Assembly (NCBI RefSeq): GCF_003704095.1
Contig: NW_020847349.1
Location: 124,001-188,000, forward strand
DNA from: Pocillopora damicornis
Taxonomy: Eukaryota
Length of the DNA stretch: 64,000 nucleotides
Direction: 5' to 3'
Shown: piece after piece, positions 3,001-36,000 of the stretch
Layout: each line of letters opens with the position of its first letter
Position numbering within the stretch: the stretch's first letter is position 1
Program-made: the position numbers

Positions 3001-6000
3001 TAGGTCGTCAGTCAGTATACATTTCCATCGGCGCTGTAGTTATTCTAAAATCTATTCCCAAGAAAGGCTTTCTTTTCTTAACTGAATTTGGATCTATGGG
3101 CAAAGTTTCCTCTACCTACCGACTCTGCCAGGCCAGCATTGCGTTATGGCAGACATTCCTAAGATTTCATCCCATTGTAAACACCAGCTGTAACTGTCAT
3201 GCCTTAAGGAATGTGCCGAGACAAAACTCGGTCGTATTTATTACTCTAGTGTCTCTATGACCTTGGAATGAACTTACTGCTGACTGAGCCGGCCTTTGGA
3301 TAGTCCACTAATAACTTGTTCGTTAGCAAATTAGTATAGATTTATTATTTTTTTATTCATAATAAAATGAATTTTATATGCTATTTACTGTCGCAAATAA
3401 TGAATTGCAGTACAGATGGGCTCTGAAATTACGCCCTTTGTTTTGGATCTCGAAATTCTCAGAATTCAAGATGTTTCTAAGTATTTTTGTTAAATAAACA
3501 AAATCTCGTACAGTTTTGTTTTCTTTATTCACCTCTCACCTTAAGTAAATTTCCTCTCGAAAAATGAACAATGACAATTGAAACAAGTATGATTTCATTT
3601 TTTGTACTTGACCTTCATCAGGAATTTCCAGGTGTCGATATGTCGCAATATAGGTATGTCATTGAATTAAGCGAACAGTGATAGTTTTCGTGCACTCAAG
3701 GACAGGCTAGGTGATTATGTAAATCTGCGTTTCCGATTTCCGTTGGATAATCTTTTGCTGCGGATATGTATCACAACAAAATAAACATGCGTCATTGACC
3801 GAGCGAAAGGTCAGGATGCCTTGCAGTGAACTGCGAATTATTTGTTTTGGCTACTTTGAAGACTTGCGATGCGATCCCATTGTTAAACAAGTAGCAGAAG
3901 TTTGGCGAAAGCCATGAACTATTTGCACCGGTTACGACATTTTTGCAAGTTTGTTTGTTTTTTTTTCCAGGATCATCGCGGGTAATCAATGAGAAGCATC
4001 TCATTACCTTTCCGAGTTAAAGTAAAAGACAGGCTTAAGACTGAGTGTAGGAAACAGACCAGTAGAACAAAAACTTTTTTTTACCGGCTGATGTTGAAAC
4101 TTACTGATCCCAAACAAAATACTCACACTGTTGTCTTCCGGTTAGAGTTTGGCGTTCATTGTTCTACTGAGCACCATACCTTGTTTGAAAGCCTTGAAAC
4201 TGTGTACGGAGAGGACCCTTGTCATTACAATGAAGAAAAGTCGATTTTGTTATGATAGTGCCGTTTTTGCAGTTTTTAAAATGTGAGCAAAGGAATTATT
4301 GAAAGAAAAGATGTAACTCTAAAAAAATAATAAAATATTTTTAATGCAGAAAATATGTCCGATGTGCATGTCTTTACAAACACGCCATTATGGCAATCTT
4401 GACATCGCTGATTAGTGATAACACATTATTTAAGTGTGGTCTCGTTTTTTAGGTATTGCAAAATCATCTCCTAAAATTTGTCATTCATATATTTTAGAAC
4501 CAATTAGCTGCGACTTCAGATAGTTGGGCCTGAAGGAATGTATTCTGGCATGATGGCTGAACGTGGTTTACTAACACTCATAACTTTTGCCCTGCTGTCT
4601 ATCAGTCAAGGTAAGTATGAATAGGGAAGGGGTGGGTGGTGCGCAGTTGCTCAGGTACTGACACTGAAGCTACATATTCTCTGTTGCCTTTTAGAAAGGC
4701 TTATTTAAGGTGGCTCACATGGCCATTTTTATTTTTCAACACATTAATTCATTATGAATTGTATCATCTACACTTTTTCAATTCTTTCTTAAGGAATGGT
4801 GTCCAAAAATGCCCAATCAGGCTTACATACTTGTTGTGCTTTAGAGAAAAACCCTTATTTCAGTCTTAATGCGCCTGTAATATGAAAACGAGATCAGTTG
4901 CCCCCTTTCTTATTACGATTCAGTCAAAATATCAAGTTTTTTTCACTTACTCTGTTGTAACAGTTTATCAAGATTTCAAGAGTCCAGTATTGAACGAAAG
5001 GGTGGAAGTTGCTCACAAGACTGAATTTTATTCTTACGAAAGCTTATACGAACCAATCCTCACGAAAGCGGAAACGAACTGATCTTAATGAAAGTGAAAA
5101 CAAAGTGATCCTAATGGAAGCGAAAACGAAGTGACCTTAACGAGAGCGAAATCGAATTTTAACCTTTAAGCATTTAAGAGGCTATGTCTGTCATGTTCAC
5201 TTGGAGTTTTGTCGTAAATGTACGAGAAACATTTTCGCAGTGACAGACGCTTGTTCTTTAGTTCTTTTGTCCACAAGCAATATTTATGTTTTGCTTTTTT
5301 GACCTACAGGTTTGGAAAATTGTACAGAGCCGTGTCTCATATACACTGTTTCAAATAGAATTGACGCAATTGAGTTAGCTTCGTCCAGAGTGGTGAACCT
5401 GGTGTCCAATCTTACGTTACCGCTCGATCTTGATGTCCATGTAAGCGAAAGAACATTATACTGGAGCGATTCCAATCAACGTGTCATCAAACGTATGAAC
5501 ATGTCCAGTGGTGTCATGAAAGACATTATTACAGAAGACCATGGATATGTCGGTGACCTTGCCGTGGAATGGGAAAGTCGCCTTTTATATTGGACAGATT
5601 CGTTCTACCACAGGATTGAAGTTGCCTCCTTAGACGGCACCAAAAGAAAGGTGCTCTTCAGCGAGTCCTTGAGCTATCCGGCTGGAATAGCGGTGCACCC
5701 AAAGAAAGGGTGAGTAGAAAGTGTAAAATGTTCGCATCTATTTGAGGTGAGGTAGTTTGCGTCTCAAGGAATGAAAATTTGGCAAAGTATCTTTTTGCAG
5801 TGACATGGTTTTTCATAGAAGGGCTTGAAAATGGAATGAATTAACGGTCACTGACCTACAGAAAACAATGAGACATTATTTTCCCCTGCCGTCATGAGAA
5901 TTATGCTTGCTCCATTATCTCTGAAAACGTACTCAGTGAGTTATTTAAACTTATAACAGTACTAGCATTAAAAATTAGGAACAGTCATCGACGATGGTCA

Positions 6001-33000: not shown

Positions 33001-36000
33001 AGTCAATGTACCGAAAATTCTCGATATCTACCGGAACGTTTTAACGATTTCGAAAGAATAGATTTTCGTTTCGCCCACCCTTCCTTCACAAAGCCTATAT
33101 CACAGACTTTATATGAAGTGCTCCAAGCGGTATGATTCCTTCCCTTGCACACTATATACTAACAGGTAATTTAGTGTTAACAACTGAGTTAAAAATGTGA
33201 ATTGGCAATTGCAATCGCTCTGACGAAGGGCTAATGCTCGAAACGTTAGCCTTTAAACTCTTTACGGTGGCCAATTTCCGTTTTCAACTCAGTTGTTCAC
33301 ACTAAATTACCCTTTTATACTCTCCCACTGACGTAGTACCACAGTTTCTTTAGAAACTTGCCCCCTTTATGCACTTTACTAAGTTTGGCGACGATTATTA
33401 TATAATATATCCACATTTGTGTCAAACATTGCAGGAGTTGTTTCTTTTTTTAATACCATGTTTGAGTTACGTGCGGTATATGAGCTTAGATACCAGGGCC
33501 TGTGCACCAATCAAAACTTAGGACCTGATATGTATCACAGACAACTTTAAACTTTTTAACGATTATCACATTCTACCTTTTTTTCAAGGCAAAAGACAGG
33601 TAGAGAATCCAACAAATAGTGAAAGGTCTACTCAGGATAAAGAGACGTTAAACGTGCCAATTGTTGCTGGGTTAGGAGGCACTGTTGTTCTGTTGGTGCT
33701 AATCGTGGTATTCTTCGTTTACCAAATGATGCGGTGAGGCTTTCAAAAGAAGTTACTTTCTTTTATTAATCAGTCAATCGACCAGTCATTTTGAAGTACG
33801 CCAACATATTTTGGCTTTGACATTTACAATCCTGCTAATCTTTTTCGTCCTTGTCATTCTCCTTCCTTTTTATATTCCATTCTGCACCTTCTTGCGCTTT
33901 GGAGTCTCATTGTACTTTAGAAAGCTTTTCAGTATTTTATTGTCTCATTCTATTATAAATCACTTACTCCTGCTACAGAAAAAATAACACGAAACATCGC
34001 GACGTAGTCCCTTGGAGCTCGGAGACGTCCCAATAAACTGCAACTGCATTGGAAATTTCATTTATTTCTATACTTGAAAATGGAGAGAAGAAACATGACA
34101 GAAGGTCATTTATGAAGAATGGCCGGCTGTTGTTGTGGTTGTTTCCTTTTTTCTTAAGATATGTCCGATTTGTCTTACAGGAAAAGAAATCATACAGGGA
34201 AAAGAACAGACGAAATATATTTGGACAGTGACTTTGTGCACCCCAGAGCCAATTCTATGGTTACATTTGAAAACCCAGGGTATGTCGGGGAAAACACGAC
34301 GTATGAATCCATCCACCACAGAAGTGGATCGGTGACATCCAGACAAGAGCAAGTCAACGGGGTTGGATCCTTGGACAACAACAACGCCACACAGCAAGCA
34401 ACCGAAAAAACTTTTCTGAGTAACCCAACCTATGGTGTGCCATTCACTAAAGATCCTACAAATATCGAAGATTCTGAAAATCGTTATGCCACCATTGAGG
34501 AGAAGAAGACAGAGCCCTAGGCGAAAGAATCCGGGTTGACTGATCGAGTTAGTTACGTGAATCTTGTAGAATAGCACAGAAGACATTGATAGTAACATGC
34601 TGTAGCGAAAGTGAATTAGGTTTCCCTGGCAACTGCATTTTTCTTTGTTTATTTCTTAAGAGCTTTAGCTACAAAAAACATGCCGGAGTCGATATTTCCA
34701 CAACATCCCTATCGGCTTTTTTTGGGGCTCGATGTTGGAATAAAGAGAGATTCTTTCAATTCCTTTAGTCGCAAGCTTGGCACAAACGGTTTTTTTTTCA
34801 TTTTTTTTTTTCATTTTCCCTCCCAAAAACCGACGAAAGTGCGTGTTTTTCCATCTACACTGCCATGGGAAACTTGTAAGTTTGAATTCACCTTTTATAT
34901 TCCTTTAGTTTGCCTTGCGATCTCTCTTGAGGTAGGAAAAGGATAGGGTCACCATAAAAATCTGATTTGTATAAATTGTGGCAATAACTAAAATTTTTTT
35001 AACATTATGACGAAGCTACGCTTTAGCATCCAGTTCTTGGCGGAGGTAGAATTAAATAGATTTCTGTTGTCTTAGAAAAAGTATGCACAGCGATTTTTAA
35101 CTATTAGCCTTCGCACAATTACTGCTGTTAGCATGAAGGCTCCAGTTGAAGAGAATTGGGATGGTATTACCTCTTGAATGCTTGAGAAGGATCTCCCTTG
35201 CTCTCTTTTATGCAACAGTTGTTTGTCATAAGGGCAGCAGAGAAGAAAGAATAAGGAATTAGTCACATTACTCTTACAAGTACTGACGATATTCCTTATC
35301 ACAATATTAATGTTGCATGCATTTTGAAATTGTTAGATGCACCTTTCTGTTTATGTTATTATAGCAAATTAATTTGACTTTTGCTTTTTGAATGGATCAC
35401 GATTGGCTTTCTTTCGTTTTAATCTACTTAGTTTTTACGTATATTCATTCCTGGTGTGAAATCCTCGTTAATTGAGCGGAATAAAGTTTCTTGAGTTATT
35501 TTAATGTCATAAAAAATTAAATATTTTTTTCCATCAGTGTTATTTCAAATAATCACAGTTAGAGAGAAAAGATTAAAGATCTTGGGTTAATCATGTTTCA
35601 ATGTTTACTTTGCATGTTATAATCCCTGTTGATGTTATTACCTAGCTTAATATCTTTCCTAGTTCGTTCATTATATATTTCCTATTACTCGTATTGGGAC
35701 AGTGTTTCGTTTTGCTTTCTCTTTTTTGTGTTTTCTTTGATCGCGGCCTCTGAGGGAAATCTTCTCATTCCCTATTCTGTCTCTTTCTCGCTTCCTTCTG
35801 CGCTAGGCCGATACGGCATTCCGTTTTCCTTTTTTTGCACTTTATTTTGCGTTATTCATCATATCTATTTGTTTTCCTTTTACCGAGTCTTTACTGCCAT
35901 TTGTGTTCTTGTGTTTCTCCTTTTGCCGGCATCCTACTCCTTCCCGCCCTCCTTGAAAGAAACTTATGGAAACTCATTCCTTTTTAATAAAAATAGTCCT

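What the first reader, a model, noticed from the sequence alone, without database searches (positions are those of the whole stretch)
4538..34520. Unusual LRP-family architecture: at least 5 propeller-EGF modules, mucin stalk, EGF, SEA-like, TM, with no LDL-A repeats
Seen: the signal exon splices directly into propeller 1. Three propellers lie in the 5' contigs and two more in contig B, followed by the stalk, EGF, a ~115-aa juxtamembrane domain, the TM and an NPxY tail. No LDL class-A exon or PPPSP motif is visible. Established: LRP4 has N-terminal LDL-A repeats; LRP5/6 have 4 propellers, 3 LDL-A repeats and PPPSP motifs. Inference: a lineage-specific receptor family that automated pipelines would label 'LRP4/6-like'. 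The join between propeller 3 and the EGF at 21443/24450 falls in gaps, so the module count is a minimum.
[Added by the scan's program, not by the reader: the finding's places include an assembly gap (unread letters, written N; its length is only estimated) at 10420 to 10519, 10867 to 11302, 13988 to 14117, 21014 to 21113, 23391 to 23490. Whether the letters on both sides are continuous or in frame is not known: test that first.]
Basis: partly seen in the sequence, partly recalled or inferred. Interest (0 to 1): 0.72.

Follow-up and report, generated by a model that had tools for sequence, protein, structure and literature searches.

The report
Coral five-propeller receptor, two scrambled copies
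The stretch holds two diverged copies of a stony-coral membrane receptor with five beta-propeller/EGF units, a sugar-bearing stalk, a membrane-adjacent domain and an uptake-signal tail but no LDL-A repeats, and the assembly has interleaved and partly inverted the pieces of the two copies.

Summary
There is a signal exon spliced straight into propeller 1, YWTD propeller + EGF cassettes, a Ser/Thr/Gln-rich tandem-repeat stalk, one EGF, a ~125-aa juxtamembrane domain, a TM helix and a tail with FENPGY and NPTY. There is no LDL-A and no PPPSP.

But 4538-34520 is not one collinear gene. The window is a mosaic of two ~85-88% identical copies. Copy alpha lies on the + strand (4538-10419 and 24450-34520). 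Copy beta lies inverted at 19089-10520 (it is the deposited partial Pocillopora damicornis model pdam_00015732), then on the + strand at 21443-23390 and 38967-44707. Three of the five gaps join different copies or strands.

Both copies keep every splice site, the ATG and the stop; dS is 0.16 and dN/dS 0.34.

A collinear Stylophora protein shows exactly five cassettes with P3 joined directly to EGF3.

Propellers 2-5 form their own clade, so this is not an LRP4 or LRP5/6 orthologue.

'SEA-like' is supported only at the fold level.

Verdict: a stony-coral variant of the LDL-receptor superfamily, present here as two copies (probably tandem paralogues) that scaffolding has scrambled. Moderately interesting.

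The parts
4538..4610 (+). copy alpha, exon 1: start codon and signal peptide, phase-1 donor
   Evidence: 80% identical to the N-terminus of Stylophora P0003
5310..7109 (+). copy alpha, cassette 1: P1a 5310-5709, P1b 6140-6552, EGF1 6984-7109 (939 nt in all)
   Evidence: Pfam; junctions
7716..9749 (+). copy alpha, cassette 2: P2a 7716-8115, P2b 8510-8919, EGF2 9627-9749 (933 nt)
   Evidence: Pfam; junctions
10337..10419 (+). copy alpha, first 83 nt of propeller 3, cut by the gap at 10420
10520..19089 (-). copy beta, 5' half on the minus strand: signal 19089-19017, P1a 18254-17855, P1b 17437-17025, EGF1 16546-16421, P2a 15805-15406, P2b 15014-14605, EGF2 13887-13765, P3a 12197-~11797, P3b ~10742-10520 (cut by gap). 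It equals the deposited partial model pdam_00015732 (P0004)
   Evidence: P0004 maps at 97-100%; boundaries; Pfam
21443..23390 (+). copy beta, EGF3 21443-21565, P4a 22125-22536, P4b 23105-23390 (cut mid-exon by gap)
24450..26996 (+). copy alpha, EGF3 24450-24572 and cassette 4: P4a 25132-25537, P4b 26148-26548, EGF4 26865-26996
   Evidence: Pfam; junctions
27312..29722 (+). copy alpha, cassette 5: P5a 27312-27717, P5b 28580-28980, EGF5 29606-29722 (924 nt)
   Evidence: Pfam; junctions
30236..30760 (+). copy alpha, stalk + EGF exon (525 nt): 18-nt repeat x19 at 30283-30624, then a six-Cys EGF
31338..32546 (+). copy alpha, juxtamembrane (SEA-like) domain in three exons: 31338-31378, 31919-32001, 32317-32546
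   Evidence: fold
33589..33733 (+). copy alpha, transmembrane exon
   Evidence: TM helix in the model of the Desmophyllum homologue P0034
34181..34520 (+). copy alpha, cytoplasmic tail exon with FENPGY (NPGY 34272-34283), NPTY (34422-34433) and TAG stop
38967..44707 (+). copy beta, 3' part: P5b 38967-39367, EGF5 40031-40147, stalk+EGF ~40676-41308 (repeat x25.4 at 40720-41177), JM 41788-41828 / 42332-42414 / 42693-42928, TM 43775-43919, tail 44368-44707

Best explanation
The region encodes a type I membrane receptor of the LDL-receptor superfamily in a form so far seen only in stony corals. Its parts, in order, are: a signal peptide; five YWTD beta-propeller + EGF cassettes; a Ser/Thr/Gln-rich hexapeptide-repeat stalk; one EGF; a ~125-aa beta-alpha-beta-beta-alpha-beta juxtamembrane domain of the SEA/ferredoxin-like fold class without the self-cleaving G|SVVV motif; one TM helix; and a ~112-aa tail with an FxNPxY-type motif (FENPGY) and a second NPxY (SNPTY). 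It has no LDL-A repeats and no PPPSP motifs.

The window, which matches the Pocillopora damicornis assembly, holds two copies, alpha and beta. Both are intact as far as they are assembled. They most likely form a tandem pair, and scaffolding has interleaved their contigs and inverted part of them.

Inferred mechanism (not shown here): the propellers bind protein ligands, as they do in LRP4, LRP5/6 and nidogen. The glycosylated stalk and the membrane-adjacent domain hold them above the cell coat. The NPxY motifs recruit PTB-domain adaptors for clathrin uptake or signalling, as in LDLR-family receptors.
For: Domains. Pfam hits on single exons and on the related database proteins (P0003 has 13 class-B repeat stretches and 5 EGFs, with no PF00057 and no SEA).

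One transcription unit.
- Contig C6 carries EGF3 through the stop codon without a gap.
- All 20 introns placed in alpha have GT-AG and compatible phases that close on TAG.
- Stylophora P0002 spans P4b to the tail in one model, and P0003 spans the signal peptide to EGF5.
- The cassettes are 939, 933, 939 and 924 nt long and are flanked by phase-1 introns.

Two copies.
- Self-alignment: 45,837 of 62,182 assembled bases lie in an inter-contig pair of >=200 bp at >=80% identity. Contigs C4, C5 and C7 are 98-100% covered.
- All 19 boundary pairs mapped in full keep AG/GT in both copies, and both keep the ATG and TAG.
- Over 13 exon blocks there are no stops; pS is 0.147, pN 0.054 and dN/dS 0.34.
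- Exons are 92-98% identical against 83-88% for introns.

Paralogues rather than alleles.
- dS is 0.16.
- The Stylophora proteins P0002 and P0003 are also two copies, 71-81% identical over the shared part, and both list a longest contig of 1,039,750 bases.
- Contig C9 carries, without a gap, a match to the DNA downstream of beta (50791-51140 matches 47300-47669) and, 6.8 kb further on, a match to the DNA upstream of alpha (57620-58517 matches 1-680). Its end abuts where flipped C4 would begin.

Not LRP4 or LRP5/6. Module tree of 31 propellers: coral P2-P5 100/100, P4+P5 99/96.

Juxtamembrane fold. The model of the Desmophyllum domain has pLDDT 69.5 and pTM 0.65 with the order b1-a1-b2-b3-a2-b4. 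The best PDB match is the MUC16-homologue SEA domain 1ivz (E 7.1e-3, prob 0.93). Other membrane-adjacent SEA-type domains are in the list: IA-2/phogrin, Gpr126, protocadherin-15 MAD12 and MUC16 SEA5. The top three ESM Atlas clusters are SEA, at 0.80-0.81.

Tail motifs. They are kept in alpha, beta, Stylophora P0002, Desmophyllum P0034 (NPGF, NPTY) and fragments P0035 and P0039.
Against: - No single assembled copy, and no database protein found, carries the whole architecture. Alpha lacks most of P3. Beta lacks the end of P3, the end of P4b, EGF4 and P5a. A search for proteins over 1541 aa with the C-terminal part found none (the tool calls this weak evidence).
- No transcript data were available.
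- SEA membership is not shown. There is no Pfam SEA on the exons, P0002 or P0034. A PDB profile search gave 0 hits at E <= 10. Both Foldseek runs gave 0 hits at E <= 0.001, with TM to SEA domains of 0.42-0.48 and many generic ferredoxin-like folds ranked equally well. The Atlas scores are below the tool's 0.9 line.
- The stalk is poor in proline (5%), unlike classic mucin PTS repeats.
- The tandem-order argument leans on a 370-bp match that could be a dispersed repeat. The genome paper mentions high heterozygosity, so divergent haplotigs are not excluded.
- P1's position in the tree is weak (85/96, long branch), and an AU test does not reject all five coral propellers forming one clade (p 0.20).
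- Ligands, glycosylation and endocytosis are inferred from family knowledge, not tested.
Confidence: 0.7

Rival explanations
1. Alpha and beta are two very divergent haplotypes (uncollapsed haplotigs) of a single-copy gene, which the scaffolder placed side by side.
For: The duplicates end exactly at contig ends, and whole contigs (C4, C5, C7) are second copies. This is the usual signature of retained haplotigs. The genome paper attributes missing sequence to high heterozygosity (passages read). Every segment is seen at most twice.
Against: Divergence is very high for alleles: dS 0.16, introns 12-17% different with many indels, and repeat copy number 19 against 25. Stylophora also shows two copies that are only 71-81% identical. 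Contig C9 links a downstream-type segment to an upstream-type segment without a gap.
Confidence: 0.2
2. The 5' propeller part and the 3' stalk-TM part are separate genes: a secreted multi-propeller protein and a small mucin-like membrane protein.
For: NCBI has two separate Stylophora models (P0003 ends in EGF5, P0002 begins in P4b). Desmophyllum P0034 is annotated as a 330-aa protein with only JM-TM-tail. No protein over 1541 aa with the C-terminal part was found.
Against: P0002 joins 1.5 propeller cassettes to the stalk, TM and tail in one model. In alpha the EGF5 donor (29722, phase 1) and the stalk acceptor (30236, phase 1) match that model residue for residue across a 513-nt intron. P0003 stops inside EGF5, and P0034 starts with non-homologous residues just before the first JM strand; both look like truncated models. 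The stalk-EGF exon fragments from other sources end at the same VYVG exon boundary.
Confidence: 0.08
3. It is the coral orthologue of LRP4 or LRP5/6 that has secondarily lost its LDL-A repeats.
For: The best non-coral matches of exon P1a are LRP4 proteins at 36-38% identity, followed by LRP5/6. Like LRP5/6 it starts with a signal peptide followed directly by a propeller. P1 falls with the first propellers of LRP4, LRP5/6 and VLDLR (85/96).
Against: P2-P5 form their own clade (100/100) instead of pairing with positions 2-4 of LRP4 or LRP5/6, which are themselves recovered with 97-100 bootstrap across vertebrate, amphioxus and insect rows. It has five cassettes, not four. It has no PPPSP and no LDL-A. 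Its C-terminal half has no counterpart in those families.
Confidence: 0.07

Closest known systems
LRP5/LRP6 (arrow) Wnt co-receptors
   Same: A signal peptide followed directly by tandem YWTD propeller + EGF cassettes; a single TM; the automatic name of the Stylophora 3' model.
   Different: Five cassettes instead of four. No LDL-A repeats between the last EGF and the membrane. No PPP[ST]P motifs in the tail. NPxY motifs instead. Propellers 2-5 are not positional orthologues. That LRP5/6 has 4 propellers, 3 LDL-A repeats and PPPSP motifs is taken from the finding and from general knowledge, not from a call.
LRP4 (MEGF7)
   Same: Best non-coral sequence matches of propeller 1 (36-38% identity); an NPxY-bearing tail; the automatic name of the Stylophora 5' model.
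   Different: No N-terminal LDL-A cluster (P0003, P0004 and alpha all go from signal peptide to propeller 1). Five cassettes. A stalk/EGF/juxtamembrane module that LRP4 lacks.
Membrane-tethered mucins with a SEA module (MUC1, MUC16 type)
   Same: The order Ser/Thr-rich tandem repeats - (EGF) - SEA-type fold - TM. The best fold match is a MUC16-homologue SEA domain. Repeat copy number varies between copies.
   Different: The fold match is not significant and Pfam SEA is not detected. The b2-b3 turn reads G-E, not the self-cleaving G-S. The repeats are proline-poor. A 1,500-aa propeller array sits on top. The mucin domain order is recalled, not taken from a call.
Pro-EGF (EGF precursor)
   Same: A membrane protein that combines YWTD propellers and EGF domains without any LDL-A repeat (recalled, not tested here).
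   Different: Pro-EGF has fewer propellers, many more EGFs, a growth-factor EGF next to the membrane, and no stalk or SEA-type domain. No sequence comparison was made here.

Membership tests
LDL-receptor family (core definition) | LDL-A (class A, complement-type) ligand-binding repeats | tested here: not met
   0 hits for three LDL-A patterns in six frames of the whole window (the PROSITE-style pattern is recalled). No PF00057 in 20 single-exon/ORF Pfam queries or in P0002, P0003, P0004. Unassembled gaps cannot be read, but Stylophora P0003 is continuous across the corresponding interval.
LDL-receptor family (core definition) | YWTD (class B) six-bladed propeller followed by an EGF | tested here: met
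   Ldl_recept_b and FXa_inhibition hits on every complete propeller half-exon and EGF exon tested; the gap-cut 68-aa start of alpha P3 alone gave no hit.
LDL-receptor family (core definition) | Single TM and an NPxY motif in the tail | tested here: met
   FENPGY and SNPTY in alpha and beta. A TM helix is modelled in the homologue P0034.
LRP5/6 | Four propeller-EGF cassettes that are positional orthologues of LRP5/6 P1-P4 | tested here: not met
   Five cassettes. P2-P5 form their own clade at 100/100.
LRP5/6 | PPP[ST]P phosphorylation motifs in the tail | tested here: not met
   The only two PPP[ST]P matches in the window lie outside the gene, at 49302(-) and 57131(+).
LRP4 | N-terminal LDL-A cluster before the propellers | tested here: not met
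   The signal exon splices directly to propeller 1 in alpha and beta, and the same is seen in P0003 and P0004.
SEA domain (Pfam PF01390) | Match to the family profile | tested here: not met
   No SEA hit at E <= 0.01 on the JM exon, P0002 or P0034. PDB profile search: 0 hits at E <= 10.
SEA domain (Pfam PF01390) | Alpha/beta sandwich with order b-a-b-b-a-b next to the membrane | tested here: inconclusive
   The model has this order (pLDDT 69.5). The top PDB match is SEA 1ivz, but at E 7.1e-3 and TM 0.42, with 0 matches at E <= 0.001. Atlas SEA clusters score 0.80-0.81, which is a lead only.
SEA domain (Pfam PF01390) | G|S[VI]VV autoproteolysis motif at the b2-b3 turn (present in many but not all SEA domains; recalled) | tested here: not met
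   The turn reads G-G/S-G-E-N-T in all 14 aligned sequences that cover it.
Membrane mucins | Pro/Thr/Ser-rich tandem repeats | tested here: inconclusive
   Hexapeptide tandem repeats with S+T 48-51% but only 5% Pro and 20-25% Gln. Glycosylation cannot be tested here.

The most novel reading that the evidence does not exclude
Stony corals possess a family of their own within the LDL-receptor superfamily. It is a ~2,000-aa receptor that has replaced LDL-A repeats with an internally amplified array of five propellers, mounted on a mucin-like stalk and a SEA-type membrane-adjacent domain. In most corals that domain carries an R-x-K-R|S convertase site in its exposed loop (7 of 8 non-pocilloporid sequences), which would give a two-chain receptor held together by the fold. 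The gene has been duplicated independently in Pocillopora and Stylophora, and both copies are under purifying selection. That would point to a coral-specific ligand-capture or surface-sensing role, for example towards microbes, symbionts or the skeletal matrix.
Probability: 0.4. Interest if true: 0.55.

Novelty: new variant of a known kind. Interest (0 to 1): 0.4.

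Why it matters
Biologically, it shows how the propeller-EGF cassette, a symmetric phase-1 exon set, can be amplified and fused to a mucin/SEA-type membrane anchor to make a receptor that automatic annotation files under LRP4 or LRP6. 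Anyone inferring Wnt or agrin signalling components in corals from those names would be misled. The P. damicornis genome paper lists 'lipoprotein receptor-related protein' among coral-diversified families (passage read).

Practically, the locus is a clear case of a scrambled scaffold. Three of five gaps join different copies or strands, and the deposited model pdam_00015732 is the inverted copy truncated by a gap. Gene counts and copy-number claims for this family from this assembly need long-read confirmation.

Tried and rejected
- One search failed because I wrote minus-strand references with start > end. It was corrected.
- Whole-protein fold of the Desmophyllum homologue P0034 (mean pLDDT 54) gave only generic ferredoxin-like matches. 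I replaced it with a domain-only model.
- PDB sequence-profile search with alignment A1: 0 hits at E <= 10.
- Search for proteins over 1541 aa with the C-terminal part: none.
- Literature: 0 papers hold 'YWTD' + 'SEA domain' + 'mucin'.
- Literature: from the listing, none of the 7 papers describes this architecture.
- Literature: the Stylophora skeletal proteome paper (passages read) lists an 'LRP8-like' protein and a MAM/LDL-A protein, not this one. Its supplementary tables could not be seen.
- The automatic junction finder mis-chained EGF4 with EGF5 and proposed a JM-b donor at 32007 that runs through an in-frame stop. Reading the sequence corrected this to 32001.
- My first reading of the EGF5|stalk junction as ambiguous was resolved.
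- The conserved minus-strand ORF 31578-31853 was considered as a missed exon. It has no Pfam hit and Stylophora has no residues there, so it is left unexplained.
All window queries were single exons, and the full-length order is inferred from collinearity with database proteins.

Full report
WHAT THE WINDOW IS

The window has 38.8% G+C and ten assembly gaps that split it into eleven contigs, C1 to C11. A deposited partial protein of Pocillopora damicornis (P0004, pdam_00015732, 879 aa) maps at 97-100% identity onto the minus strand from 19074 to 10536 and stops where that strand runs into the gap at 10520. The window therefore matches the published P. damicornis assembly. According to the passages I read, that assembly was made from Illumina shotgun and Chicago libraries with HiRise scaffolding, and it was noted for high heterozygosity (PMC6208414).

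THE SPAN IS NOT ONE COLLINEAR GENE

Self-alignment shows that 45,837 of 62,182 assembled bases lie in an inter-contig pair of at least 200 bp at 80% identity or more. The pairs that matter here are:
- 2605-10413(+) with 21013-12121(-), inverted, 85-94% identical;
- 21114-23390, which is all of contig C5, with 24123-26433, 87% identical;
- 27805-37093 with 38076-47266, 84-86% identical.

Contigs C4, C5 and C7 are 98-100% second copies. I call the copies alpha (C1 plus C6, + strand) and beta (C4-C3-C2 on the minus strand, then C5 and C7 on the + strand).

THE GAP TESTS THE SCAN'S PROGRAM ASKED FOR
- Gap 10420-10519: an alpha exon on the + strand and a beta exon on the - strand converge on it. 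Not continuous.
- Gap 10867-11302: lies within a beta intron. Compatible with continuity.
- Gap 13988-14117: lies within a beta intron, collinear with 118 bp of alpha microsatellite. Continuous.
- Gap 21014-21113: beta upstream DNA on the - strand meets a beta intron on the + strand. Not continuous.
- Gap 23391-23490: beta P4b is cut mid-exon and meets an alpha intron. Not continuous.

On the + strand there are P1, P2 and 83 nt of P3. The rest of P3 is visible only in beta, and its last ~62 residues are assembled in neither copy.

THE DOMAINS ARE REAL

I searched single exons only.
- Pfam finds class-B (YWTD) repeats in all 11 complete propeller half-exons tested (only the 68-aa, gap-cut start of alpha P3 gave no hit) and the post-propeller EGF in all five EGF exons tested. 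It finds no LDL-A and no SEA.
- Three LDL-A cysteine patterns give 0 hits in all six frames of the window. PPP[ST]P occurs only twice, both outside the gene. NPGY and NPTY sit in the tail exon of both copies.
- The stalk is an 18-nt tandem array, 19 copies in alpha and 25.4 in beta. It is 48-51% Ser+Thr, 20-25% Gln and only 5% Pro.

GENE STRUCTURE

With the Stylophora proteins as guides and the sequence read at each junction, alpha has these exons:
- 4538-4610: signal peptide
- 5310-5709, 6140-6552, 6984-7109: cassette 1
- 7716-8115, 8510-8919, 9627-9749: cassette 2
- 10337-10419: start of P3, then the gap
- 24450-24572: EGF3
- 25132-25537, 26148-26548, 26865-26996: cassette 4
- 27312-27717, 28580-28980, 29606-29722: cassette 5
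- 30236-30760: stalk + EGF
- 31338-31378, 31919-32001, 32317-32546: juxtamembrane domain
- 33589-33733: TM
- 34181-34520: tail, ending in TAG

Every intron is GT-AG. The phases are regular: Pa|Pb is phase 2, Pb|EGF is phase 1 and EGF|Pa is phase 1. The four complete cassettes are 939, 933, 939 and 924 nt long, so each is a symmetric phase-1 unit. The unassembled end of P3 can therefore join in frame, provided its donor is phase 1 like those of the other four propeller second-half exons.

INDEPENDENT SUPPORT FROM STYLOPHORA
- P0003 ('LRP4-like isoform X2', 1567 aa) runs signal-P1-E-P2-E-P3-E-P4-E-P5 and stops inside EGF5. P3 joins directly to EGF3, and there is no LDL-A.
- P0002 ('LRP6-like', 880 aa) runs P4b-E-P5-E-stalk-EGF-juxtamembrane-TM-tail.
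- Both window copies map collinearly onto these two proteins.

So the count is five in Stylophora, and the propeller part and the membrane part are joined in at least one model. No database protein carrying the whole architecture was found. The search among proteins longer than 1541 aa was empty (weak evidence by the tool's own statement).

ARE THE TWO COPIES PARALOGUES OR ALLELES?

All 19 boundary pairs mapped in full keep AG and GT in both copies. Exon lengths are equal or differ by 6 nt, and the ATG and TAG are at homologous positions. Over 13 exon blocks there is no stop codon; pS is 0.147, pN 0.054, dS 0.16 and dN/dS 0.34. The P4a block was left out of that count because of a 6-nt indel. 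Exons are 92-98% identical against 83-88% for introns. Alpha and beta are 90-94% identical in protein, and each is 74-85% identical to either Stylophora copy. The Stylophora copies are 71-81% identical to each other.

Contig C9 carries, without a gap, a match to the DNA downstream of beta (50791-51140) and, 6.8 kb further on, a match to the DNA upstream of alpha (57620-58517). It ends where flipped C4 would begin. This fits a tandem pair in the order C1, C6, C9, flipped C4-C3-C2, C5, C7.

I rate paralogy at about 0.75 and divergent haplotigs at about 0.2. The C9 argument rests on a 370-bp match that could be a dispersed repeat.

RELATION TO KNOWN LRPS

I built a maximum-likelihood tree of 31 propeller modules: the five of P0003 plus modules of named LRP4, LRP5/6, VLDLR and nidogen proteins. 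Thirteen modules from unnamed sources were dropped beforehand. The tree recovers the positional classes of bilaterian LRP4 and LRP5/6 with 97-100 bootstrap support. It places coral P2-P5 in a clade of their own (100/100), with P4+P5 as the youngest pair (99/96). P1 falls with the first propellers (85/96, on a long branch). An AU test does not reject all five coral propellers forming one clade (p 0.20). The array therefore grew by internal duplication, and the gene is not an orthologue of LRP4 or LRP5/6.

THE C-TERMINAL MODULE

I ran an exhaustive phmmer search with the C-terminal 316 aa of P0002 against 1.84 billion representatives. It found 25 proteins at E <= 0.001, of which 9 were at <= 1e-10. 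By the matched query range they divide as follows:
- 10 are juxtamembrane-exon fragments;
- 8 are stalk+EGF exon fragments;
- 2 are TM fragments;
- 2 are tail fragments;
- 2 are multi-EGF proteins that match only the EGF;
- 1 is a 330-aa Desmophyllum pertusum protein (P0034) with juxtamembrane-TM-tail, carrying NPGF and NPTY.

P0034 was the only one of the ten hits whose cluster records I looked up that carries a name; those of the other 15 were not looked up. One caveat: the library holds one representative per 50% cluster, so full-length members can be hidden behind propeller-only representatives.

IS THE JUXTAMEMBRANE DOMAIN SEA?
- Pfam says no. A PDB profile search finds nothing at E <= 10.
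- A domain-only model of P0034 residues 11-142 has mean pLDDT 69.5 and pTM 0.65, with the order b1-a1-b2-b3-a2-b4.
- Its best PDB match is the SEA domain 1ivz (E 7.1e-3, prob 0.93, TM 0.42). IA-2/phogrin ectodomains, Gpr126, protocadherin-15 MAD12 and MUC16 SEA5 are also listed. Nothing reaches E <= 0.001, and generic ferredoxin-like folds score alike.
- The three best ESM Atlas clusters are SEA, at 0.80-0.81, which the tool rates as a lead only.
- The b2-b3 turn reads G-E, not the self-cleaving G-S.

I conclude 'SEA-type fold class, membership not shown'. A side observation: 7 of 8 non-pocilloporid sequences carry R-x-K-R|S in the low-confidence a1-b2 loop. The window copies and Stylophora do not carry the full motif.

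HOW IT PROBABLY WORKS (INFERENCE)

It is likely a cell-surface receptor whose five propellers bind protein ligands. A glycosylated stalk and a membrane-adjacent domain hold the propellers away from the membrane. The FxNPxY-type and NPxY motifs dock PTB-domain adaptors for clathrin uptake or signalling, as established for LDLR-family tails. This is family knowledge and was not tested here. The absence of PPPSP argues against a canonical Wnt co-receptor role.

NOVELTY

The proteins exist in databases under LRP4-like and LRP6-like names. My literature searches found no description of this architecture (passages). The supplementary tables of the two coral papers could not be seen and may list family members. 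I rate it a new variant of a known kind, with interest 0.4.

Noticed in passing
window 50150-50390 (+), contig C9: An avidin-family exon (Pfam PF01382, E 1.3e-10) lies between the two receptor copies in the proposed true order.
   Followed up: partly
window 62393-62812 (+): A reverse-transcriptase fragment (RVT_1, E 2.9e-11) runs into the gap at 62814. It is probably a retroelement insertion at a contig break.
   Followed up: partly
window 12406-13318: A minisatellite of ~0.9 kb, open in several frames with a 'PFPIPHS'-type periodicity, sits in the beta intron between EGF2 and P3a. Alpha has no counterpart (alpha 10161-10224).
   Followed up: no
window 31578-31853 (-), and 42125-42260 in beta: A 91-aa minus-strand ORF lies inside the intron between the first two juxtamembrane exons. 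It is 93% identical between the copies, against ~85% for neighbouring intron. It has no Pfam hit, and Stylophora P0002 has no residues there. Unexplained.
   Followed up: partly
window 12337-12197 (-): The deposited model pdam_00015732 (P0004) contains ~40 residues between EGF2 and P3 that Stylophora P0003 lacks. The acceptor conserved in both window copies is at 10337 (alpha) and 12197 (beta), so the deposited model probably includes intron sequence.
   Followed up: partly
proteins P0034, P0042, P0043, P0044, P0049, P0050, P0052 (not P0038); window 32317-32345 and 42693-42730: R-x-K-R|S, a proprotein-convertase-type site, sits in the disordered loop of the juxtamembrane domain in 7 of 8 non-pocilloporid sequences. 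It is degenerate in both window copies (SKRD, KSKRD) and lost in Stylophora.
   Followed up: no
window 53028-56214 and 62184-58625: A further inverted pair of ~3 kb (74-83% identical) with internal ~180-bp repeats lies in contigs C9 and C10. It fits the same two-copy mosaic outside the gene.
   Followed up: no
window 9350-9530: A compound microsatellite in the alpha intron after P2b sits exactly opposite the beta gap 13988-14117, which suggests the gap was caused by this repeat.
   Followed up: no
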